This document shows positions 943 through 15,297 of a stretch of 15,297 bases of DNA, piece by piece. Under the pieces are notes generated by a model. That model saw only the letters and a list, made by a program, of their open reading frames with translations, was not told where the DNA came from and searched no databases. Position 1 is the first letter of the stretch. Each line of letters begins with the position of its first letter. The DNA is from Naegleria gruberi (lineage: Eukaryota): assembly GCA_000004985.1 (NCBI GenBank), contig GG738964.1, one strand, 5' to 3'. Both the position numbers and the translations under genes were made by a program.

Positions 943-1242
943 ATGTCAGCACATGGTAATAGTGGAAATCGTGTAAAAAATTTAAAAGGAACCACTGGAT
1001 GTTCACATTATAGAGGATTAGAAGAAAATTTAAATAGTGATACTAAATGTGCAGTTAATGGATGTGATGGAAATGCAACAAGAGCATGTCATGTTATTTA
1101 TTCTAATCAAAATGAAAATACAGGTACAAGATATATTGTCTACATGTGTCCTAGTTGTAATGGTAAAAATGATCAAATATTTGATATTAGATTAAATGCA
1201 AAAATGTATGAATTAAATAATTGTACATGTGGTCATTATTAA
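943..1242 (+). CDS. small Cys/His-rich protein (99 aa; 8 Cys, 3 His; CxxxxC, CPSC and CTCGH motifs), function unknown; possible zinc-binding protein
   Basis: This 100-codon open frame sits in a genome where random frames close quickly. Its G+C is clearly higher than in the flanking intergenic DNA, and its codon choice (ggt, tgt, aat, caa) is Dictyostelium-like. Cysteines sit at residues 20, 36, 41, 49, 69, 72, 94 and 96. I recognise no family. Confidence 0.5.
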   Translation: MSAHGNSGNRVKNLKGTTGCSHYRGLEENLNSDTKCAVNGCDGNATRACHVIYSNQNENTGTRYIVYMCPSCNGKNDQIFDIRLNAKMYELNNCTCGHY

Positions 1243-1399: not shown

Positions 1400-1407
1400 T
1401 TTGGCGC
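1400..1407 (+). promoter_or_regulatory. E2F-consensus octamer TTTGGCGC (TTTSSCGC), ~107 bp upstream of the kinesin ATG
   Basis: This is an exact match to the E2F consensus. It lies in a small GC island (1399-1434, 'ttttggcgctaatttgttaccgctctcaagcg') within otherwise ~90% AT intergenic DNA. GCGC is otherwise essentially absent from the determined sequence. Confidence 0.3.
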
Positions 1408-1513: not shown

Positions 1514-2304
1514 ATGGAGAATATCAATCCTCAACTCGACAAGACAAATTTAAAATACTACAATAATCAAATTAATATGTTTCAACAACCTCAATCTTTT
1601 TCCTCAATGAAAAAGAATCCAAATACTAATAATATGAATACTACTAATAACATGACTAATAATCCTCAACAAATTAATTACATGCAACAACAACAACAAT
1701 ACATGATGATGATGGATCCAAATGCCATGAATCAAACTGTAACATCACCTACTCTTCTTCAACAACAACAGCAATATATGAATATGATTGCTGCTACAAT
1801 GATGAATCAACAACAATTACCATCAAATAATTATTCAAAGCCTCCTAATACTATTAATAATATGAATTATCAATTACAACAACAACAACAACCCTCCAGT
1901 AACATTTCAATTAGTAATTTGCCTCAATCTAATATGATTGGTAGTAATAATAATGTTACTACTACTAGTACAACTAAATCTGTATCATTCAATCCTTCAT
2001 CCACTAATTTATCATCCTCAACAGCCTCTTCTAATATGACTAATACTCATTCTACTTCACAATTATCTGCTCAAAATATTAATACTATTAATACTAAAAC
2101 TAAAACCCTTCTTAATAATCCTAATACTAGTATTATTGGTAATAATCCAACAATAAGTAATAATACTGTTAGTAACACAACTGCTAATAATGCCACCTCT
2201 ACTGCTGCTACTTCAGCTAGCAATAATAATAATTCATTAGTATCATCTACTAGTACTAATACTAATACTAATACTACCACTACTACCAGCAACAATAATA
2301 CAAC
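1514..2304 (+). repeat. Coding low-complexity (prion-like) Q/N/S/T-rich region forming a ~265-aa N-terminal extension of the kinesin
   Basis: Translation contains runs such as QQQQQ, NNNNS, TNTNTNTTTTTSNNNT and MMMM. The underlying codons are mostly caa, aat and act repeats. The antisense ORF 2071-2295 is a shadow of this region. Confidence 0.8.
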
Positions 2305-3336
2305 TCGAGTTAAAGTAGTTGTTAGAGTTAGACCACAAGTATCAGAAGATATAAGTAATAGTCAAATATTTGGAGAATATCCACCATGTGTAGCAACAGT
2401 TAAAAATACAGTTATATTAAAAAGAGAATGTTATGATGATAGAGAATTTACATTTGATAAAGTGTTAGAACCAACATGTTCTCAAGATGAAATGTATAAA
2501 CAAGTTGGTAAAAACATTGTTAATGATGTATTAAAAGGATATAATGGAACTGTATTGGCATATGGTCAAACAGGATCAGGTAAAACATTTACTATATTTG
2601 GAAGTTCAACAGATCCAAAAAGGATTATTAAACCTAATGAAAATATAATTGATAAATATAGTGGAGTTATTCCTAGATGTATAAATCAAATATTTGAACA
2701 TGTACAAGAATATTCAAATAATACAGAATTTAGAGTTTTTGTTTCATTTATGCAAATATATATGGAAAATATAATGGATTTACTTGATGCAAGTAAAACA
2801 AATTTACCAATTAGAGAAGATCCAAAAAATGGAGTATTTGTAGAACAATTAACACAAGTACAAGTTAATGAACCTTATGAAGTAATGCAATTAATTAAGG
2901 AAGGATCTAAAAATAGACAAGTAAATTCTACAAATATGAATAAGTTATCTTCACGTTCACATGTAATATTAATGATTACAGTTGAACAAAAATCATCAAG
3001 TGATAAAAGTGTTAAAAGAGGAGTGTTACATATTGTTGATTTGGCAGGAAGTGAAAGAGTTTTTAAATCTGGAAGTGAAGGTCAACGATTGGAAGAAGCT
3101 AAAAAAATTAATAAGAGTTTAAGTGCTTTGGGTAATTGTGTTGCTGCCCTGACAGAGGAAAATGTTTATCATGTACCATTTCGTGATTCCAAATTAACAC
3201 GTTTATTAACAGATTCATTAGGTGGTAATGCTAAAACATGTCTTGTTGCAACTATTGGACCATCTATGTGGAATTATGATGAATCTTATTCTACTTTACA
3301 TTTTGCTAATAGAGCAATGAATGTTAAAAATCAGCA
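1514..3336 (+). CDS. kinesin heavy-chain-like motor protein, 5' part (N-terminal low-complexity extension plus a complete motor domain; the remainder is lost in the N run)
   Basis: The ATG at 1514 follows an in-frame TGA at 1508-1510. The motor starts at 'RVKVVVRVRP' (~2305). The P-loop 'GQTGSGKT' is at 2564-2587. Switch I is 'NMNKLSSRSH', switch II is 'LHIVDLAGSER', followed by 'EAKKINKSLSALGNCVAAL' and 'HVPFRDSKLTRLLTDSLGGNAKT'. The motor ends at 'LHFANRAMNVKNQ' just before the N run. The 'INKSLSALG' and 'SSRSH' strings most resemble kinesin-1 (KHC) cores. I do not assign a kif number. Confidence 0.9.
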
Positions 3337-7218: not shown

Positions 7219-7305
7219 GGTGGTATGAAAAGAAGATTATCTATTTGTATTGCTTGTATTGGTTCTCCTAAATTAATTTTATTAGATGAACCTACTACTG
7301 GTTTG
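7219..7305 (+). CDS. ABC transporter, ABCA subfamily: penultimate visible exon fragment (ABC signature and Walker B region), 5' part in the N run
   Basis: Frame-1 translation is '[29 protein letters not shown]'. This matches the LSGGxKRRLSxAxAL signature and the ILLDEPTxG Walker B of ABC nucleotide-binding domains. The exon ends at a GTATGT donor (7306). Confidence 0.8.
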
Positions 7306-7408
7306 GTATGTTTTTAAATTTATTTAATATTTAATTTATTTATTTTATAATTTTAATATTTTAATTTTAATATAATTTAATATTTAATATAATTTAATAT
7401 TTTAATAG
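7306..7408 (+). other. Intron (103 nt, GTATGT...TTTAATAG) of the ABCA gene
   Basis: It has the canonical Dictyostelium donor gtatgt and acceptor ag and is >90% AT with (AATTTAATATTT)-like repeats. Splicing joins 'LDEPTTGL' to 'DPFSRKKAWNL', which restores the conserved ABCA motif LDEPTxGxDPxSRRxxW. The 103-nt length shifts frame 1 to frame 2 exactly as needed. Confidence 0.8.
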
Positions 7409-8044
7409 GATCCATTTTCACGTAAAAAAGCATGGAATTTAATTCATAAAATGAAGAAAGGTAGAGCAATGATATTAACAACACATGCTATGGATGAAGC
7501 AGATTATTTAAGTGATCGTATTGCAATTATGGCACATGGTCAATTAAAATGTATTGGTGATTCATTATCTATTAAATCTCAATATGGAAGTGGATATAAT
7601 TTACTTGTAGTTGCTAATAATGGTTATGAAAAACAAGTTGTAAAAACAATTAATCAATATTTAACAAATGTTAAAATTGTTTCACAAAGTGCTGGTAATT
7701 TCATTTTCAATGTTCCTAAAGAACAAGTTAATGAATTAGGTCAATTAATTTCTTATTTGGAAAAATTAACAAGTGAAAATACTTTAAATAATAATGGAAC
7801 ATCTATTAATGGTAATACTAATATGATTAAAGATTGGGGTATTTCACAAACAACATTGGAAGAAGTTTATCTAAAAGTTACACAAAACTCTGAATTTTCA
7901 TACAAGAATGATGATAATGCTATTAGTATGGGTAATATGAGTGAAATTGCTGAAGAACAAGAATTAATTGAACACAACAACACTGTACCAAATGTTGTTT
8001 CACTCAATGATGTTAGTGAAATGACAAATAATGCAGAAGAATAA
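7409..8044 (+). CDS. ABC transporter, ABCA subfamily: terminal exon (H-loop and C-terminal regulatory region), stop TAA 8042-8044
   Basis: 'DPFSRKKAWNLIHKMKKGRAMILTTHAMDEADYLSDRIAIMAHGQLKCIGDSLSIKSQYGSGY' closely parallels the ABCA1-type NBD region '[25 protein letters not shown].LFLK...G.GY'. 'DWGISQTTLEEVYLKV' matches the ABCA 'GISETTLEEIFLKV' motif. The ORF track's 7451 start is only an internal Met. Confidence 0.85.
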   Translation, partial: DPFSRKKAWNLIHKMKKGRAMILTTHAMDEADYLSDRIAIMAHGQLKCIGDSLSIKSQYGSGYNLLVVANNGYEKQVVKTINQYLTNVKIVSQSAGNFIFNVPKEQVNELGQLISYLEKLTSENTLNNNGTSINGNTNMIKDWGISQTTLEEVYLKVTQNSEFSYKNDDNAISMGNMSEIAEEQELIEHNNTVPNVVSLNDVSEMTNNAEE

Positions 8045-8154: not shown

Positions 8155-8501
8155 TTAAAATTCAAATCCAATTGGTAATAAAGTATCCTTATCATATTGA
8201 ATGAAAACATCACCTGATAAACCATCTAATTGTCTATCTAATGAAATTCTACCTGCTTCTAAAATTGCTGTTGTAATTAATGTTGCAATATGTGTTGGTA
8301 AATTTTTAATCTTATTGTCATTATTTTCATTGTTATTTTCATTATTTTCATAATTTCTAATAAAATCAACTGATGGTAATTGTAATTTTAATAAATCCAA
8401 ATCATTAATAAAATTATTTTGATATAAATAAACACATTCAATAAAAGAAGCTAAACTTTGATAACCATAACCATTTTGACCTGCAAATACACCTAATACA
8501 T
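8155..8501 (-). CDS. hypothetical protein, C-terminal 115 codons (5' part in the N run); function unknown
   Basis: The minus-strand frame stays open from the N run down to the TAA (plus 'tta' 8155-8157). It translates as '...VLGVFAGQNGYGYQSLASFIECVYLYQNNFINDLDLLKLQLPSVDFIRNYENNENNNENNDNKIKNLPTHIATLITTAILEAGRISLDRQLDGLSGDVFIQYDKDTLLPIGFEF*'. The ORF track's start at 8400 is a TTG called as an alternative start. The same frame continues upstream through 8401-8499 without a stop, so the track's ORFs 8155-8400 and the tail of 8438-12076 are one gene fragment mis-split. Confidence 0.55.
8318..8357 (-). repeat. Imperfect 9-nt tandem repeat (plus TCATTRTTT; minus GAAAATAAT) encoding NENNENNNENN within the 8155-8501 gene
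   Basis: The sequence reads 'tcattattttcattgttattttcattattttcataatttc'. Confidence 0.6.
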
Positions 8502-11500
8502 NNNNNNNNNNNNNNNNNNNNNNNNNNNNNNNNNNNNNNNNNNNNNNNNNNNNNNNNNNNNNNNNNNNNNNNNNNNNNNNNNNNNNNNNNNNNNNNNNNN
8601 NNNNNNNNNNNNNNNNNNNNNNNNNNNNNNNNNNNNNNNNNNNNNNNNNNNNNNNNNNNNNNNNNNNNNNNNNNNNNNNNNNNNNNNNNNNNNNNNNNNN
8701 NNNNNNNNNNNNNNNNNNNNNNNNNNNNNNNNNNNNNNNNNNNNNNNNNNNNNNNNNNNNNNNNNNNNNNNNNNNNNNNNNNNNNNNNNNNNNNNNNNNN
8801 NNNNNNNNNNNNNNNNNNNNNNNNNNNNNNNNNNNNNNNNNNNNNNNNNNNNNNNNNNNNNNNNNNNNNNNNNNNNNNNNNNNNNNNNNNNNNNNNNNNN
8901 NNNNNNNNNNNNNNNNNNNNNNNNNNNNNNNNNNNNNNNNNNNNNNNNNNNNNNNNNNNNNNNNNNNNNNNNNNNNNNNNNNNNNNNNNNNNNNNNNNNN
9001 NNNNNNNNNNNNNNNNNNNNNNNNNNNNNNNNNNNNNNNNNNNNNNNNNNNNNNNNNNNNNNNNNNNNNNNNNNNNNNNNNNNNNNNNNNNNNNNNNNNN
9101 NNNNNNNNNNNNNNNNNNNNNNNNNNNNNNNNNNNNNNNNNNNNNNNNNNNNNNNNNNNNNNNNNNNNNNNNNNNNNNNNNNNNNNNNNNNNNNNNNNNN
9201 NNNNNNNNNNNNNNNNNNNNNNNNNNNNNNNNNNNNNNNNNNNNNNNNNNNNNNNNNNNNNNNNNNNNNNNNNNNNNNNNNNNNNNNNNNNNNNNNNNNN
9301 NNNNNNNNNNNNNNNNNNNNNNNNNNNNNNNNNNNNNNNNNNNNNNNNNNNNNNNNNNNNNNNNNNNNNNNNNNNNNNNNNNNNNNNNNNNNNNNNNNNN
9401 NNNNNNNNNNNNNNNNNNNNNNNNNNNNNNNNNNNNNNNNNNNNNNNNNNNNNNNNNNNNNNNNNNNNNNNNNNNNNNNNNNNNNNNNNNNNNNNNNNNN
9501 NNNNNNNNNNNNNNNNNNNNNNNNNNNNNNNNNNNNNNNNNNNNNNNNNNNNNNNNNNNNNNNNNNNNNNNNNNNNNNNNNNNNNNNNNNNNNNNNNNNN
9601 NNNNNNNNNNNNNNNNNNNNNNNNNNNNNNNNNNNNNNNNNNNNNNNNNNNNNNNNNNNNNNNNNNNNNNNNNNNNNNNNNNNNNNNNNNNNNNNNNNNN
9701 NNNNNNNNNNNNNNNNNNNNNNNNNNNNNNNNNNNNNNNNNNNNNNNNNNNNNNNNNNNNNNNNNNNNNNNNNNNNNNNNNNNNNNNNNNNNNNNNNNNN
9801 NNNNNNNNNNNNNNNNNNNNNNNNNNNNNNNNNNNNNNNNNNNNNNNNNNNNNNNNNNNNNNNNNNNNNNNNNNNNNNNNNNNNNNNNNNNNNNNNNNNN
9901 NNNNNNNNNNNNNNNNNNNNNNNNNNNNNNNNNNNNNNNNNNNNNNNNNNNNNNNNNNNNNNNNNNNNNNNNNNNNNNNNNNNNNNNNNNNNNNNNNNNN
10001 NNNNNNNNNNNNNNNNNNNNNNNNNNNNNNNNNNNNNNNNNNNNNNNNNNNNNNNNNNNNNNNNNNNNNNNNNNNNNNNNNNNNNNNNNNNNNNNNNNNN
10101 NNNNNNNNNNNNNNNNNNNNNNNNNNNNNNNNNNNNNNNNNNNNNNNNNNNNNNNNNNNNNNNNNNNNNNNNNNNNNNNNNNNNNNNNNNNNNNNNNNNN
10201 NNNNNNNNNNNNNNNNNNNNNNNNNNNNNNNNNNNNNNNNNNNNNNNNNNNNNNNNNNNNNNNNNNNNNNNNNNNNNNNNNNNNNNNNNNNNNNNNNNNN
10301 NNNNNNNNNNNNNNNNNNNNNNNNNNNNNNNNNNNNNNNNNNNNNNNNNNNNNNNNNNNNNNNNNNNNNNNNNNNNNNNNNNNNNNNNNNNNNNNNNNNN
10401 NNNNNNNNNNNNNNNNNNNNNNNNNNNNNNNNNNNNNNNNNNNNNNNNNNNNNNNNNNNNNNNNNNNNNNNNNNNNNNNNNNNNNNNNNNNNNNNNNNNN
10501 NNNNNNNNNNNNNNNNNNNNNNNNNNNNNNNNNNNNNNNNNNNNNNNNNNNNNNNNNNNNNNNNNNNNNNNNNNNNNNNNNNNNNNNNNNNNNNNNNNNN
10601 NNNNNNNNNNNNNNNNNNNNNNNNNNNNNNNNNNNNNNNNNNNNNNNNNNNNNNNNNNNNNNNNNNNNNNNNNNNNNNNNNNNNNNNNNNNNNNNNNNNN
10701 NNNNNNNNNNNNNNNNNNNNNNNNNNNNNNNNNNNNNNNNNNNNNNNNNNNNNNNNNNNNNNNNNNNNNNNNNNNNNNNNNNNNNNNNNNNNNNNNNNNN
10801 NNNNNNNNNNNNNNNNNNNNNNNNNNNNNNNNNNNNNNNNNNNNNNNNNNNNNNNNNNNNNNNNNNNNNNNNNNNNNNNNNNNNNNNNNNNNNNNNNNNN
10901 NNNNNNNNNNNNNNNNNNNNNNNNNNNNNNNNNNNNNNNNNNNNNNNNNNNNNNNNNNNNNNNNNNNNNNNNNNNNNNNNNNNNNNNNNNNNNNNNNNNN
11001 NNNNNNNNNNNNNNNNNNNNNNNNNNNNNNNNNNNNNNNNNNNNNNNNNNNNNNNNNNNNNNNNNNNNNNNNNNNNNNNNNNNNNNNNNNNNNNNNNNNN
11101 NNNNNNNNNNNNNNNNNNNNNNNNNNNNNNNNNNNNNNNNNNNNNNNNNNNNNNNNNNNNNNNNNNNNNNNNNNNNNNNNNNNNNNNNNNNNNNNNNNNN
11201 NNNNNNNNNNNNNNNNNNNNNNNNNNNNNNNNNNNNNNNNNNNNNNNNNNNNNNNNNNNNNNNNNNNNNNNNNNNNNNNNNNNNNNNNNNNNNNNNNNNN
11301 NNNNNNNNNNNNNNNNNNNNNNNNNNNNNNNNNNNNNNNNNNNNNNNNNNNNNNNNNNNNNNNNNNNNNNNNNNNNNNNNNNNNNNNNNNNNNNNNNNNN
11401 NNNNNNNNNNNNNNNNNNNNNNNNNNNNNNNNNNNNNNNNNNNNNNNNNNNNNNNNNNNNNNNNNNNNNNNNNNNNNNNNNNNNNNNNNNNNNNNNNNNN

Positions 11501-12028
11501 NNNNNNNNNNNNNNNNNNNNNNNNNNNNNNNNNNNNNNNNNNNNNNNNNNNNNNNNNNNNNNNNNNNNNNNNNNNNNNNNNNNNNNNNNNNNNNNNNNNN
11601 NNNNNNNNNNNNNNNNNNNNNNNNNNNNNNNNNNNNNNNNNNNNNNNNNNNNNNNNNNNNNNNNNNNNNNNNNNNNNNNNNNNNNNNNNNNNNNNNNNNN
11701 NNNNNNNNNNNNNNNNNNNNNNNNNNNNNNNNNNNNNNNNNNNNNNNNNNNNNNNNNNNNNNNNNNNNNNNNNNNNNNNNNNNNNNNNNNNNNNNNNNNN
11801 NNNNNNNNNNNNNNNNNNNNNNNNNNNNNNNNNNNNNNNNNNNNNNNNNNNNNNNNNNNNNNNNNNNNNNNNNNNNNNNNNNNNNNNNNNNNNNNNNNNN
11901 NNNNNNNNNNNNNNNNNNNNNNNNNNNNNNNNNNNNNNNNNNNNNNNNNNNNNNNNNNNNNNNNNNNNNNNNNNNNNNNNNNNNNNNNNNNNNNNNNNNN
12001 NNNNNNNNNNNNNNNNNNNNNNNNNNNN
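8502..12028. other. Undetermined sequence (3,527 N): assembly gap or mask. It hides the 5' part of the minus-strand gene and the distal mcm6 upstream region
   Basis: This is a run of n. The ORF track's 1,212-aa minus ORF through it is an artefact. Confidence 0.95.
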
Positions 12029-12033
12029 AATTC

Positions 12034-12055
12034 TTGGCGCCAAATATTTTCGCGC
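12034..12055. promoter_or_regulatory. Tandem E2F sites ~210-230 bp upstream of the mcm6 ATG: palindromic TTGGCGCCAA (12034-12043) and TTTCGCGC (12048-12055, + strand)
   Basis: Both are exact matches to the E2F consensus TTTSSCGC. The palindrome carries TTTGGCGC on the minus strand at 12037-12044. The second site is identical to the classic adenovirus E2 / DHFR-type site. These are the only GC-rich octamers in an otherwise AT-rich leader. MCM genes are canonical E2F targets. Confidence 0.5.
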
Positions 12056-12265
12056 CGAAACTTGAAAAAAAATCAATTAAAAAAAAATTGTCAAAAACAT
12101 TATCTCACACAACAATTTTTTGTGTTGTCATCACATCATCCAACAATTAATTTATATTATTTATAACTATCATCATCTACAAGTAATATAATAGTAGTAA
12201 CAACAACAACAAAACAACAATATAATAGTAATAACAATAATAATAATAACAATATAATAACAACC

Positions 12266-12771
12266 ATGAATGAAGGTAATGGAGGAGATAATGAAACAAG
12301 TACTATGAATCATGATGAATTTGGAGATGGTGGTGGAGAACAACAAGTGAATCAACAAATTAAACAATGGTTTCATGAATTTTTAAGACACTCACTAAAT
12401 CAAACAAATTTAAATATGTTTGTTCATGAATCAGGTAAAGAACCATTAGGTGAAAGATTACAAATACAATTTGCAGATATTCATACAAAAAGTGAAAGTG
12501 ATGGATCATCTATACCATCAGCTAGAAGTGTAATGGTTGATTTTACAAATGTAATGAATTATGATATGGATATTGCAATGTCAATTCGTCAAGAATTTTA
12601 TAGATTTGAACCTTTTTTAACACAATCTTTAAATATTGTTTATAAAGAATGGATACATTCAAATATTACAAGAAAAATGATTGATATTCATCAAATAGAT
12701 CAATCTTCTTCACCACATGAAAATAATTCTACAATTCAATTGAAATTTGTTAATTTACCTGATATGTTACA
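12266..12771 (+). CDS. mcm6: DNA replication licensing factor MCM6, exon 1 (168 codons plus 2 nt)
   Basis: The ATG at 12266 is the first ATG after an in-frame TAA (12164-12166). It follows an A/C-rich leader typical of Dictyostelium 5'UTRs. The exon ends '...NLPDMLQ' at a GTATGT donor (12772). The ORF track's tail 'YVLFFYFYFF...' is intron read-through. Confidence 0.8.
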
Positions 12772-12912
12772 GTATGTTTTATTTTTTTATTTTTATTTTT
12801 TTATATTTATTTATATTTACATTTATATTTATATTTATATTTATTTACATTTATGAAATATATTATAACAATTTTATTTTTTTAAAAATATATATTAAAT
12901 AATATTAAATAG
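12772..12912 (+). other. mcm6: Intron (141 nt, GTATGT...AAATAG) of mcm6, containing a (TATTTA)n microsatellite
   Basis: Splicing ca|gtatgt...aaatag|a reconstitutes a CAA (Q) codon. The frame then gives 'IRQLRSAHIGQLISLSGVVTRSSEVRPELVEG', matching the conserved MCM6 N-terminal region. The intron is ~95% AT. Confidence 0.8.
12800..12854. repeat. (TATTTA)n / (ATTTAC) microsatellite inside the mcm6 intron
   Basis: The sequence reads 'ttatatttatttatatttacatttatatttatatttatatttatttacatttatg'. Confidence 0.7.
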
Positions 12913-15297
12913 AATTCGTCAATTAAGAAGTGCACATATTGGACAATTAATAAGTTTAAGTGGAGTAGTGACAAGATCATCAGAAGTTAGACCAGAATTA
13001 GTTGAAGGTATATTTCATTGTGTAGAATGTGGTACAGTTTCAGATCCAATACCACAACAATTTAAATATACAGAACCAACATCATGTATTAATAAGACAT
13101 GTACCAATACAAAAAGATGGAGATTAGATATGCATAATTCTAGATTTGTAGATTGGCAAAAACTTAAAGTACAAGAAAATACACATGAAATACCATCTGG
13201 TTCAATGCCTAGAACATTAGATATTATATTGAGAAATGATTGTGTTGAATCTGCTAAAGCAGGTGATCGTTGTTTATTTACAGGTACTTTATTAGCTGTA
13301 CCTGATGTTGGTAAAATGTTTGGAGGTGCTCAAAGTCAACTCATTAATGCTAATTCTAAAAAGAAGGGTGATATTGAAAAACAAGGTGTTAAGGGTATTA
13401 AGGAATTAGGTGTACGAGAATTAACTTATCGATTATTATTTTTAGCTACCTCTGTTGAAACTATTGATCATACAAATAATAATAATACAAATAATACAAA
13501 TAATAACAAGTCAATGGCATCACAAATGATTAATAGTAGTGCTTTATCTAATAGTAATAATAATAATAATGGAAGTGTAGATTTTGAATCGAGTGAAGAA
13601 TTTATGAAGAAATGTACAGCTGAAGAACATGAAAAGATTCTAAAAATGTCCAAAGATGAAGATATCTATGAAAATCTAGCAAGTTCACTATGTCCTAGTA
13701 TATTTGGACATAAAAATATTAAGAAGGGAATATTATTAATGTTATTTGGTGGAGTACATAAAGAAACAGAGGAAAAGATTCAAATTCGTGGTGATATTAA
13801 TATATGTATAGTAGGTGATCCTTCAACAGCTAAATCTCAATTTTTAAAATTTGTATCTCACTTGATACCACGTGCAGTTTATACAAGTGGTAAAGCATCA
13901 AGTGCAGCTGGTTTAACTGCGTCGGTTGTTAAGGATTCAGAGAGAGGTGAATTTACAATTGAAGCAGGTGCATTAATGTTAGCTGATAATGGTGTTTGTT
14001 GTATTGATGAATTTGATAAGATGGATGTTAAGGATCAAGTTGCAATTCATGAAGCTATGGAACAACAAACTATTTCTATAGCAAAGGCTGGTATTAGAGC
14101 AACTTTAAATGCACGTGCTTCTATTCTAGCTGCTGCTAATCCAATTGGTGGTCGTTATAATCCTAGAAAAACATTGAAAGCTAATTTAGGTATTACACCT
14201 GCTATCATGTCTCGTTTTGATTTATTCTTTGTTGTACAAGATGAATGTGATGCTGAAATTGATAAAAAAATAGCTGAACATATTGTATCTGTACATCAAA
14301 ATAAGGGTCAATTGACTTGTATTAGTAATATTAATATTAATATGAATAATAATATGAATAGTAATATGAATAATATGAATCAAATGAATAATCAAATGAA
14401 TCAAATGAATAATGGAATGACACAAATTGGATCTAATATTGCACAATATTCTTCAGAAGATATAAAATTATATTTACGTTATTGTAGAAATTGTATACAT
14501 CCAATATTAACAACACAAGCACGTGAAGAATTAACAAAACAATATATTAAATTGAGACAGAATGATAAAGTTGGTAGTAATTCATATCGTATCACTGTAA
14601 GACAATTAGAATCACTTATTAGATTATCAGAAGCATTAGCTAGACTTCATTGTGAAAGTAGAGTTGAAATTAATCATGTTCGTAGAGCTATTGAACTTTT
14701 AAAAACATCAATTACAAAAGTAGCACAATCAGATATTATTCTAAGTAATAGTGATGGTATTGATGGTATGATGATGATGAATGAAACTATAAATGGAGAA
14801 TTAAAATCCAATATTCAAAAACAAAGAGAAAAGAATCAACAAGAATCAACAAGAGACTTGTTAAGAAATTTAAAAAATCAAAGAAGAAAGATTGAAACAG
14901 CACTTAATTTAGCATTAGATAGTCAAAATGAACAAGAATTATTATTGAAACAAATTGAAGAACAATCACAATCAATTAAATATATTTCTGAATATGAACA
15001 AGATCCAGATGAAAGAGATACACAAGAAGAACGTTTATTAGAATTAGAAAAGAAGAAATCTCAAATTAAGAAACGTTTAGAAGAAGCACGTCAACGTGTT
15101 GATTTATTAAGTGATCAATTAGAAAGAGAAATTGAAAAATCTCAACAATTAGAAGATGCAACTATTAATAGTAATAATATGATGGATGACAATGATGATA
15201 TGATAGATGATAATAATAATTCATTACTAGAAAGACAATATAATCATCATAGTACATTGAATGAAATGTCATCATCATCATCAAATATTATGACCTC
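12913..15297 (+). CDS. mcm6: DNA replication licensing factor MCM6, exon 2 (runs off the right window edge with no stop)
   Basis: It has a C4 zinc finger 'CVECG...CINKTC'. 'NSRFVDWQKLKVQENTHEIPSGSMPRTLDIILRNDCVESAKAGDRCLFTGTLLAVPDV' is MCM6-specific in my memory of the human sequence. Walker A is 'GDPSTAKSQFLK' (~13813-13848) and Walker B is 'CCIDEFDKMD'. 'SRFDLFF' and the C-terminal 'YRITVRQLESLIRLSEALARLHC' are also present. It is missing from the ORF track because there is no in-window stop. Confidence 0.85.
14321..14419 (+). repeat. mcm6: Coding 9-12-nt periodic repeat (AAT ATG AAT / CAA ATG AAT) producing an Asn/Met-rich insert 'NININMNNNMNSNMNNMNQMNNQMNQMNNGM' in MCM6
   Basis: This was read from the sequence. 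It lies after the arginine-finger 'SRFDLFF' region and before the conserved C-terminal helical region. The antisense ORF 14222-14446 is its shadow. Confidence 0.7.

What the first reader, a model, noticed from the sequence alone, without database searches (positions are those of the whole stretch)
12034..12055. Two perfect E2F octamers immediately upstream of mcm6
TTGGCGCCAA is palindromic, with TTTGGCGC on the minus strand at 12037-12044. TTTCGCGC lies 4 bp downstream at 12048-12055. The pair sits ~210 bp 5' of the mcm6 ATG. MCM genes are the textbook E2F/RB targets in animals and plants. Dictyostelium has an RB orthologue (rblA) and E2F, and S-phase genes there carry such motifs. Seeing the canonical adenovirus-E2-type site in an amoebozoan promoter is a clean example of deep conservation of the G1/S cis-code. 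The sites abut the N run, so further sites or a divergent partner gene may be hidden. The supplied ORF track misreads this element as the start of a 1,212-aa minus ORF.
Basis: partly seen in the sequence, partly recalled or inferred. Interest (0 to 1): 0.5.

Follow-up and report, generated by a model that had tools for sequence, protein, structure and literature searches.

The report
E2F sites upstream of Naegleria mcm6
Two textbook E2F-type binding motifs really do sit about 210 bp in front of the replication gene mcm6, and relatives carry them too. The organism is the amoeboflagellate Naegleria gruberi, not Dictyostelium, so this cell-cycle promoter code is also found in a very distant branch of eukaryotes.

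Summary
TTGGCGCCAA (12034-12043), TTTGGCGC on the minus strand (12037-12044) and TTTCGCGC (12048-12055) lie 211 nt upstream of an ATG at 12266. That ATG opens a two-exon gene which is clearly MCM6. TTTSSCGC is expected 0.02-0.1 times in the 7.9 kb of readable sequence and occurs three times.

The organism is wrong. The window is a complete 15,297-nt scaffold of Naegleria gruberi (Heterolobosea), and the N runs are most simply read as assembly gaps. Dictyostelium and rblA are therefore not relevant.

The E2F reading itself is strengthened:
- All five heterolobosean mcm6 loci I could fetch carry an E2F-like palindromic site 37-233 nt upstream of the ATG.
- In N. lovaniensis (23 kb) and Willaertia magna (23 kb) this is the only exact octamer in the locus.
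- Willaertia has the same two-site layout as N. gruberi.
- N. gruberi has E2F, DP, an E2F7/8-like protein and RB. The DNA-recognition helices of its E2F and DP are essentially identical to human E2F4 and DP2.

The third octamer in the window (1400-1407) lies upstream of a kinesin gene, and its Willaertia orthologue has one too.

Verdict: a conserved E2F-type promoter element, a new member of a known kind. Binding and cell-cycle or RB dependence remain untested.

The parts
12034..12043 (.). Site A: the palindrome TTGGCGCCAA. It holds an exact TTTGGCGC on the minus strand (12037-12044) and a 7/8 match, CTTGGCGC, on the plus strand (12033-12040).
   Evidence: The same TTGGCGCCAA palindrome lies 5' of Willaertia magna mcm6 (L003 9945-9954).
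12048..12055 (+). Site B: an exact TTTCGCGC (the adenovirus-E2-type E2F octamer). A 7/8 match, TTCGGCGC, overlaps it on the minus strand at 12052-12059. The full element reads TTTTCGCGCCGAAA (12047-12060).
   Evidence: N. lovaniensis has TTTTCGCGCCAAC at -153 and W. magna has TTTAGCGCGCAAA at -37.
12061..12066 (+). CTTGAA, the only copy in the window. It resembles a CHR-like element (CLE) but starts 5 nt, not 4 nt, after the TTCGCGC heptamer. Probably not part of the element.
   Evidence: with the definition in PMC5716687. It is not conserved in the orthologous promoters.
12266..12771 (+). mcm6 exon 1 (ATG at 12266).
   Evidence: Identical to the annotated N. gruberi protein P0100.
12772..12912 (+). 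mcm6 intron, 141 nt, GT..AG. The orthologues tested (L001-L004) align as two blocks split at the same point in the protein, consistent with an intron at the same position.
12913..15297 (+). mcm6 exon 2, which runs off the end of the scaffold. It encodes the MCM OB, AAA+ and lid domains.
8502..12028 (.). Run of 3,527 N (assembly gap) that hides everything further upstream of the sites.
   Evidence: The window is a whole scaffold.
8438..12076 (-). Artefactual 1,212-aa ORF: 16 real codons over the E2F sites, then X's from the gap and a short real tail at its C-terminal end.
1400..1407 (+). Third exact octamer, TTTGGCGC, 107 nt upstream of the kinesin ATG at 1514. It lies between the 3' end of an upstream co-oriented ORF and the kinesin gene.
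   Evidence: The W. magna kinesin orthologue has the only octamer of its 11.7-kb locus 178 nt upstream of its ATG.
1514..3336 (+). 5' part of a kinesin gene: an N/Q-rich N-terminal extension followed by the motor domain. It is cut off by the first gap.

Best explanation
The 28-bp G+C island at 12033-12060 is a pair of E2F-family binding sites in the proximal promoter of the Naegleria gruberi mcm6 gene.

Most likely mechanism:
- An E2F-DP winged-helix heterodimer binds each pseudo-palindromic site through its RRxYD recognition helices. Site A is cTTGGCGCCAAA and site B is TTTTCGCGCCGAAA.
- Bound E2F-DP activates mcm6 when cells commit to DNA replication.
- The RB-family pocket protein binds the C-terminal tail of E2F and holds the same sites repressed when cells leave the cycle, for example during amoeba-to-flagellate differentiation or encystment.

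Shown here:
- The sites exist and are not chance.
- They sit in a co-linear 5' region of mcm6.
- They are conserved across Naegleria and Willaertia.
- N. gruberi has the cognate proteins with conserved DNA-contact helices.

Inferred, not shown:
- Actual binding.
- Which E2F family member acts.
- RB dependence.
- Cell-cycle-phased expression of mcm6 in Naegleria.
For: 1. Exact consensus, not chance. The window has 3 TTTSSCGC against 0.016-0.10 expected, and P(>=2 in the 237-nt 5' stretch) is 1e-7 to 5e-6. These cores are the only G/C runs of 5 or more in 7.9 kb. They keep 4 CpGs in a CpG-depleted sequence, O/E 0.31.

2. The gene is MCM6.

3. Phylogenetic footprint:
- W. magna L003: TTTTTTGGCGCCAATT-6 nt-TTTTAGCGCGCAAA at -57 and -37. 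Same two-site layout, and the only exact octamer in 22.9 kb (expected in the 188-nt 5' region 0.0025).
- N. lovaniensis L002: TTTTCGCGCCAAC at -153. The only exact octamer in 23.3 kb (expected 0.03 in 620 nt).
- L001 (about 97% identical to N. fowleri MCM6): GCGCCAAT at -135. This is the only TTSGCGC in 11.5 kb (p about 0.012-0.023).
- L004: ATTCCCGCCAAAAAAA at -41.
- The variation seen (GGCGC, CGCGC, CCCGC) stays within the S-S degeneracy of the E2F consensus.

4. Pooled over 88 kb of heterolobosean DNA, 6 of 8 exact octamers fall in the 3.1% that is the 5' region of mcm6 or the kinesin (binomial 2e-8).

5. The upstream neighbour is co-oriented in L001 (mitofilin) and L003 (kinase), so there the sites can only belong to mcm6.

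6. Trans-factors. NgruE2F, NgruDP, NgruDEL and NgruRB sequences are in the source data of Medina et al. 2016 (PMC4862756).
- NgruE2F aligns to the E2F4 chain of entry 1CF7 (which I recall is the E2F4-DP2-DNA complex) at E = 7e-25, and [24 protein letters not shown] is identical.
- NgruDP aligns to DP2 at E = 1e-28, and KNIRRRVYDALNVLMA is identical.
- NgruE2F ends in DDFMFEMESGEGVSDLFL. I recall this resembles the pocket-protein-binding motif of animal E2Fs.

7. GCGSSAAA/TTTSSCGC as the E2F family consensus, with G preferred before the CG core, is taken from PMC4862756 and PMC5716687.
Against: - There are no binding or expression data for Naegleria. I found no paper reporting E2F cis-sites there.
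- The transcription start site is unknown, so 'proximal promoter' rests on distance to the ATG alone.
- In the N. fowleri-like locus L001 only a 7-mer survives, and in L004 both strands have one mismatch, so exact octamers are not universal.
- Spacing between the two sites differs: about 15 bp centre to centre in N. gruberi and about 20 bp in Willaertia.
- The sequence upstream is hidden by a gap, and the sites lie at a contig edge next to that gap.
- I could not scan other replication genes of this genome, so enrichment across the regulon is untested.
Confidence: 0.8

Rival explanations
1. The sites are bound mainly by the atypical, DP-independent E2F7/8-like protein of Naegleria (NgruDEL). 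It would act as a repressor, rather than the sites being used by an activating E2F-DP/RB module.
For: N. gruberi encodes a DEL/E2F7-8-type protein with two DNA-binding domains. NgruE2F's DNA-binding domain also matches the E2F8 chain 4yo2, which illustrates the shared fold. The L004 variant TTCCCGCCAAAA resembles the E2F7/8-preferred sequence, as I recall it.
Against: Nothing distinguishes the family members at the sequence level. In animals and plants typical and atypical E2Fs share sites, so this refines the main explanation rather than replacing it.
Confidence: 0.1
2. The G+C island is the target of an unrelated Naegleria factor that recognises GGCGCC/CGCGCC, and the match to E2F is coincidental.
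For: No binding data exist. In a 25% G+C genome any conserved GC-rich word stands out.
Against: - The T-run and A-run flanks and the S-S variability seen in the five species match the E2F consensus specifically.
- The E2F and DP recognition helices are conserved.
- The target gene is a classic E2F target.
Confidence: 0.06
3. The sites serve, or also serve, a divergent gene hidden in the 3.5-kb gap, so this would be a bidirectional promoter.
For: The sites abut the gap. In N. lovaniensis the nearest upstream calls are small minus-strand ORFs.
Against: In the N. fowleri-like locus and in W. magna the upstream gene is co-oriented and ends 188-215 nt before the mcm6 ATG, yet the sites are still present.
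Confidence: 0.1
4. The motifs are chance occurrences or a sequencing or assembly artefact at a contig edge.
For: They lie 5 nt from the gap, at the edge of a contig.
Against: Expectations are 1e-7 to 5e-6, and equivalent sites occur in four other independently assembled loci.
Confidence: 0.01

Closest known systems
E2F sites of animal and plant replication-gene promoters (adenovirus E2, DHFR, MCM, CDC6, ORC1; consensus TTTSSCGC)
   Same: The octamers are exact, and the pseudo-palindromic form (TTTSGCGCSAAA-like) is shared. Both show tandem or overlapping inverted sites within a few hundred bp of the start of a replication gene. The cognate E2F-DP has identical recognition helices.
   Different: The lineage is Heterolobosea (Discoba). 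The genome is AT-rich and CpG-depleted, and the sites are the only G/C runs in it. Binding, the transcription start site and cell-cycle expression are all unknown.
Dictyostelium RblA/E2F regulon (Strasser et al. 2012, PMC3386910)
   Same: In D. discoideum mcm2-7 and seven mitotic kinesins are co-repressed by RB. Here the same motif marks mcm6 and a kinesin gene in one window.
   Different: The organism and supergroup differ. That paper reports expression, not promoter motifs. None of those data apply to Naegleria.
E2F/CLE and CDE/CHR tandem elements bound by DREAM (Mueller et al., PMC5716687, PMC4176359)
   Same: An E2F site is followed by CTTGAA, which those papers list as a common CLE and as the CCNA2 CHR.
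   Different: The spacer is 5 nt after the TTSSCGC heptamer, not the defining 4 nt. The hexamer is absent at that position in the four orthologous promoters. Whether Naegleria has LIN54/MuvB was not checked.

Membership tests
E2F-family binding site (cis-element) | Sequence matches TTTSSCGC / GCGSSAAA | tested here: met
   Two exact matches at 12037-12044 (-) and 12048-12055 (+), each with a 7/8 partner on the opposite strand.
E2F-family binding site (cis-element) | Occurrence above background | tested here: met
   Expected 0.016-0.10 per window and 0.0005-0.003 in the 5' stretch; observed 3 and 2.
E2F-family binding site (cis-element) | Located in the proximal 5' region of a cell-cycle or replication gene | tested here: met
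   The sites lie 211-233 nt upstream of the ATG of MCM6. The transcription start site is unknown.
E2F-family binding site (cis-element) | Conserved in orthologous promoters | tested here: met
   E2F-like sites lie 37-153 nt upstream of mcm6 in N. lovaniensis, an N. fowleri-like contig, a further ENA contig and W. magna. There are exact octamers in two of the four, and each is the only one in about 23 kb.
E2F-family binding site (cis-element) | The genome encodes E2F and DP with intact DNA-contact residues (RRxYD helix) | tested here: met
   Sequences come from the Medina 2016 source data. They align to chains A and B of 1CF7 at E = 7e-25 and 1e-28, with identical recognition helices.
E2F-family binding site (cis-element) | Physical binding by E2F-DP (EMSA, ChIP or DAP-seq) | not testable with these tools
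   No data were found.
RB/E2F-controlled G1/S gene | Cell-cycle-phased, RB-dependent expression of the gene | not testable with these tools
   N. gruberi has an RB homologue. NgruE2F ends in a sequence I recall as resembling the pocket-binding motif. No expression data were examined.
RB/E2F-controlled G1/S gene | Motif enriched across the replication regulon of the same genome | not tested
   Only mcm6 and kinesin loci could be fetched. Pooled over these, 6 of 8 octamers in 88 kb lie in the 5' regions of those two genes.
E2F/CLE tandem (DREAM site) | CHR-like hexamer starting exactly 4 nt after the E2F site | tested here: not met
   CTTGAA starts 5 nt after TTCGCGC (12055 to 12061), and it is not conserved in the orthologues.
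Dictyostelium RblA target promoter | The sequence is from a dictyostelid | tested here: not met
   100% match to the N. gruberi protein on a 15,297-nt contig. Dictyostelid MCM6 proteins are only 48-49% identical.

The most novel reading that the evidence does not exclude
The regulatory link itself, E2F sites driving MCM genes, is conserved in Discoba and not just the E2F/DP/RB proteins. It would then date back to around the last eukaryotic common ancestor.

In Naegleria the same motif also marks a kinesin gene. In amoebae that build microtubules only for mitosis, that kinesin would be a spindle motor. This suggests a single E2F programme covering both S-phase and M-phase genes, as the RblA expression data suggest for Dictyostelium.

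The sites are also the main CpG-bearing non-coding words in a CpG-depleted genome. As I recall, Naegleria has a Tet-like dioxygenase, so the sites could additionally be methylation-sensitive.
Probability: 0.5. Interest if true: 0.55.

Novelty: new member of a known kind. Interest (0 to 1): 0.4.

Why it matters
Promoter elements of Naegleria and other Heterolobosea are almost uncharacterised. Kinetoplastids, the best-studied discobans, have lost gene-specific promoters of this kind (my own recollection).

A conserved E2F site pair at mcm6, and a further one at a kinesin gene, would give three things:
- A concrete cis-regulatory handle on cell-cycle transcription in this lineage, which includes the pathogen N. 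fowleri.
- A third or fourth supergroup in which the E2F-to-replication-gene wiring is seen, which supports an ancestral, LECA-level G1/S circuit (compare Medina et al. 2016).
- A simple genome-wide prediction, TTTSSCGC within about 250 bp of the ATG, for defining the Naegleria cell-cycle regulon.

It is not surprising, because the E2F and DP DNA-binding domains are nearly identical to the human ones.

Tried and rejected
- **Dictyostelium framing.** I dropped it once one search identified N. gruberi.
- **First homologue search.** Using the N-terminal 355 aa returned only short fragments and no species clue apart from P0089/L001.
- **Exact-protein look-ups.** Two window ORFs and the second kinesin copy P0221 were not on record.
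- **Metagenome scan.** A scan with the exon-1 alignment found no relatives.
- **CDE/CHR or E2F/CLE (DREAM) tandem.** CTTGAA is unique in the window, but it is off by one in spacing and not conserved, so I rejected it as part of the element.
- **NFI-like half-sites.** I considered reading TTGGC/GCCAA this way and dismissed it. There is no 5-nt spacer, and as I recall NFI is restricted to metazoans.
- **Kinesin family.** This is unresolved. The best PDB motor domains are kinesin-1 (282 bits) against kinesin-2 (263) and KIF4 (243). The closest named non-Naegleria relative is an armadillo-repeat kinesin of Andalucia.
- **RNA genes.** tRNA and Rfam scans of the window found nothing.
- **Simulation.** A Monte-Carlo run timed out and was replaced by analytic Markov expectations.

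Full report
**What is in the sequence.** Positions 12029-12060 read AATTCTTGGCGCCAAATATTTTCGCGCCGAAA. TTGGCGCCAA (12034-12043) is a perfect palindrome. It contains an exact TTTGGCGC on the minus strand (12037-12044) and a 7/8 CTTGGCGC on the plus strand. Three bases further on lies an exact TTTCGCGC (12048-12055), overlapped by a 7/8 TTCGGCGC on the minus strand. The run of N's at 8502-12028 ends five bases before the first site. The '1,212-aa' minus-strand ORF is 16 real codons followed by X's from the N run, with a short real tail at its C-terminal end.

**Chance.** The window has only 7,888 readable bases at 25% G+C. TTTSSCGC on both strands is expected 0.03 times by dinucleotide shuffling and 0.016-0.10 times under order 0-2 Markov models. 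Three copies are present. The probability of two or more in the 237-nt upstream stretch is 1e-7 to 5e-6. The three motif cores are the only runs of five or more G/C bases in the readable window. CpG is strongly depleted (38 observed, 122 expected, O/E 0.31, against GpC O/E 0.96). Even so, four CpGs sit in this 20-bp element and one more in the third octamer, out of eight in about 1.8 kb of putative non-coding DNA.

**The gene.** An ATG at 12266 opens exon 1 (to 12771). A 141-nt GT..AG intron follows, and exon 2 runs off the end of the window. The product's six best PDB hits are all MCM6 (559-648 bits, against 386 or less for any other MCM). Pfam finds MCM_N, MCM_OB, MCM and MCM_lid. My model is identical to the database protein P0100, including the start codon.

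**The organism.** A search with the N-terminal third gave no close relative. Strasser et al. 2012 show mcm2-7 and seven mitotic kinesins de-repressed in rblA- cells, with mcm6 up 3.7- and 11.4-fold. A search with the full-length model then returned a 100% match, 'predicted protein, partial [Naegleria gruberi]', on a contig of 15,297 nt, which is exactly the window length. Next came N. fowleri and N. lovaniensis (76%) and Willaertia magna (65%). Dictyostelid MCM6 proteins are 48-49% identical, no closer than fungal ones. The window is thus a whole small scaffold of the N. gruberi assembly, and its N runs are most simply read as assembly gaps.

**Phylogenetic footprint.** I fetched four orthologous mcm6 loci:
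- L001, an ENA contig whose MCM6 is about 97% identical to N. fowleri.
- L002, N. lovaniensis.
- L003, W. magna.
- L004, an unidentified relative.

Every one has an E2F-like pseudo-palindromic site shortly upstream of the ATG:

| Locus | Sequence | Position relative to ATG |
|---|---|---|
| L003 | TTTTTTGGCGCCAATT-aacgat-TTTTAGCGCGCAAA | -57 and -37 |
| L002 | TTTTCGCGCCAAC | -153 |
| L001 | GAGCGCCAATT | -135 |
| L004 | ATTCCCGCCAAAAAAA | -41 |

L003 has the same palindrome-plus-second-site layout as N. gruberi. In L002 (23.3 kb) and L003 (22.9 kb) the exact octamer upstream of mcm6 is the only one in the locus, where 0.03 and 0.0025 are expected in the respective 5' regions. In L001 the only TTSGCGC heptamer in 11.5 kb lies in the 215-nt mcm6 5' region (p about 0.012-0.023). 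The sequence variation between species (GGCGC, CGCGC, CCCGC) stays within the S-S degeneracy of the E2F consensus. In L001 and L003 the upstream gene is co-oriented and ends 188-215 nt before the ATG. There the sites can only be assigned to mcm6, which argues against a hidden divergent partner being the real target.

**The trans-acting factors.** The source data of Medina et al. 2016 (PMC4862756) contain N. gruberi E2F, DP, a DEL (E2F7/8-type) protein and RB. NgruE2F's DNA-binding domain aligns with human E2F4 in entry 1CF7 (which I recall is the E2F4-DP2-DNA crystal structure) at E = 7e-25, and the recognition helix [24 protein letters not shown] is identical. Its dimerisation region matches E2F4 and E2F5. 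NgruDP aligns with DP2 of 1CF7 at E = 1e-28, and KNIRRRVYDALNVLMA is identical. NgruE2F ends in DDFMFEMESGEGVSDLFL, which I recall resembles the pocket-protein-binding motif of animal E2Fs. The same paper gives GCGSSAAA as the E2F family consensus, with a strict preference for G before the CG core. Both window sites satisfy this.

**Mechanism.** The best-supported reading is that E2F-DP heterodimers bind the two pseudo-palindromic sites. They would activate mcm6 at commitment to S phase, and RB bound to the E2F tail would repress the gene when cells leave the cycle. The presence, non-randomness and conservation of the sites, and the existence of a matching factor, are shown. Binding, the family member involved (typical E2F or the DEL-type repressor), RB dependence and periodic expression are inferred.

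**A possible DREAM-type tandem.** Site B is followed by CTTGAA, the only copy in the window. Mueller et al. list this sequence as a common CHR-like element and as the CCNA2 CHR. However, it starts 5 nt rather than the defining 4 nt after the TTSSCGC heptamer, and it has no counterpart in the other four promoters. I do not count it as part of the element.

**Beyond mcm6.** The third octamer in the window (TTTGGCGC, 1400-1407) lies 107 nt upstream of the ATG of a kinesin gene. The W. magna orthologue (L005) has the only exact octamer of its 11.7-kb locus, TTTCCCGC, 178 nt upstream of the likely ATG (expected 0.005). Pooling all seven loci (88 kb), six of the eight exact octamers fall in the 3.1% of sequence that is the 5' region of mcm6 or this kinesin (binomial 2e-8). 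This hints at a wider E2F-marked cell-cycle gene set, but I could not reach other replication genes of these genomes.

**Novelty and score.** A full-text search for Naegleria plus E2F found 16 papers, none evidently describing E2F cis-elements in Naegleria. The finding is a new member of a known kind. It is an expected but apparently undocumented instance of the E2F-to-MCM link, in Discoba. It is useful as a handle on Naegleria cell-cycle transcription and as support for an ancestral G1/S circuit. It is not surprising, given the near-identical DNA-binding domains. Interest 0.4.

Noticed in passing
window 1400-1407 (kinesin ATG at 1514); L005 4428-4435: A third exact E2F octamer lies 107 nt upstream of a kinesin gene. 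The Willaertia magna orthologue carries the only octamer of its 11.7-kb locus 178 nt upstream of its ATG. The kinesin may therefore be a cell-cycle (mitotic) gene under the same control.
   Followed up: yes
window 1514-3336 and 7219-8044: The public N. gruberi 'kinesin' model (P0220, 793 aa) joins the kinesin motor directly to the C-terminal part of what looks like an ABC-type ATPase ([31 protein letters not shown]...) across the 3.9-kb assembly gap. It is almost certainly a chimeric gene model.
   Followed up: partly
P0221 (another N. gruberi contig, 4,759 nt): A second N. gruberi kinesin is 97% identical to the one in the window. This suggests the scaffold is an alternative haplotype or a recent duplicate. 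Its DNA could not be retrieved.
   Followed up: partly
whole window: CpG is strongly depleted (O/E 0.31) while GpC is normal (O/E 0.96). Seven of the 8 CpGs in putative non-coding sequence lie in the two E2F-bearing promoters: 4 in the mcm6 site pair, 1 in the kinesin octamer, and 2 more nearby at 1419 and 1429.
   Followed up: partly
window 12061-12066: The only CTTGAA in the window (a CHR/CLE-type hexamer) lies 5 nt after site B. The spacing is off by one relative to mammalian E2F/CLE tandems, and it is not conserved in the orthologues.
   Followed up: yes
L001 3170-3205 and L002 9862-9895: The N. fowleri-like and N. lovaniensis mcm6 promoters share a block, ATCGGTTT(C/A)AAA..TTTAAAACAAAAAATTG. 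The E2F-like site lies upstream of this block in one species and downstream of it in the other, which looks like site turnover.
   Followed up: no
window 943-1242: A 99-aa Cys-rich ORF (CxxC-type spacing) has no Pfam match, and about 940 bp of 11% G+C sequence lies upstream of it.
   Followed up: no
L001, L002, L004 versus the window: In the other Naegleria-like loci mcm6 is followed by RPL4. Mitofilin lies upstream in L001 and L002: it is the immediate neighbour in L001, and several genes lie between it and mcm6 in L002. In the N. gruberi scaffold the readable upstream neighbours differ (an ABC-like fragment and a small ORF), so synteny is not conserved or the scaffold is mis-joined.
   Followed up: no
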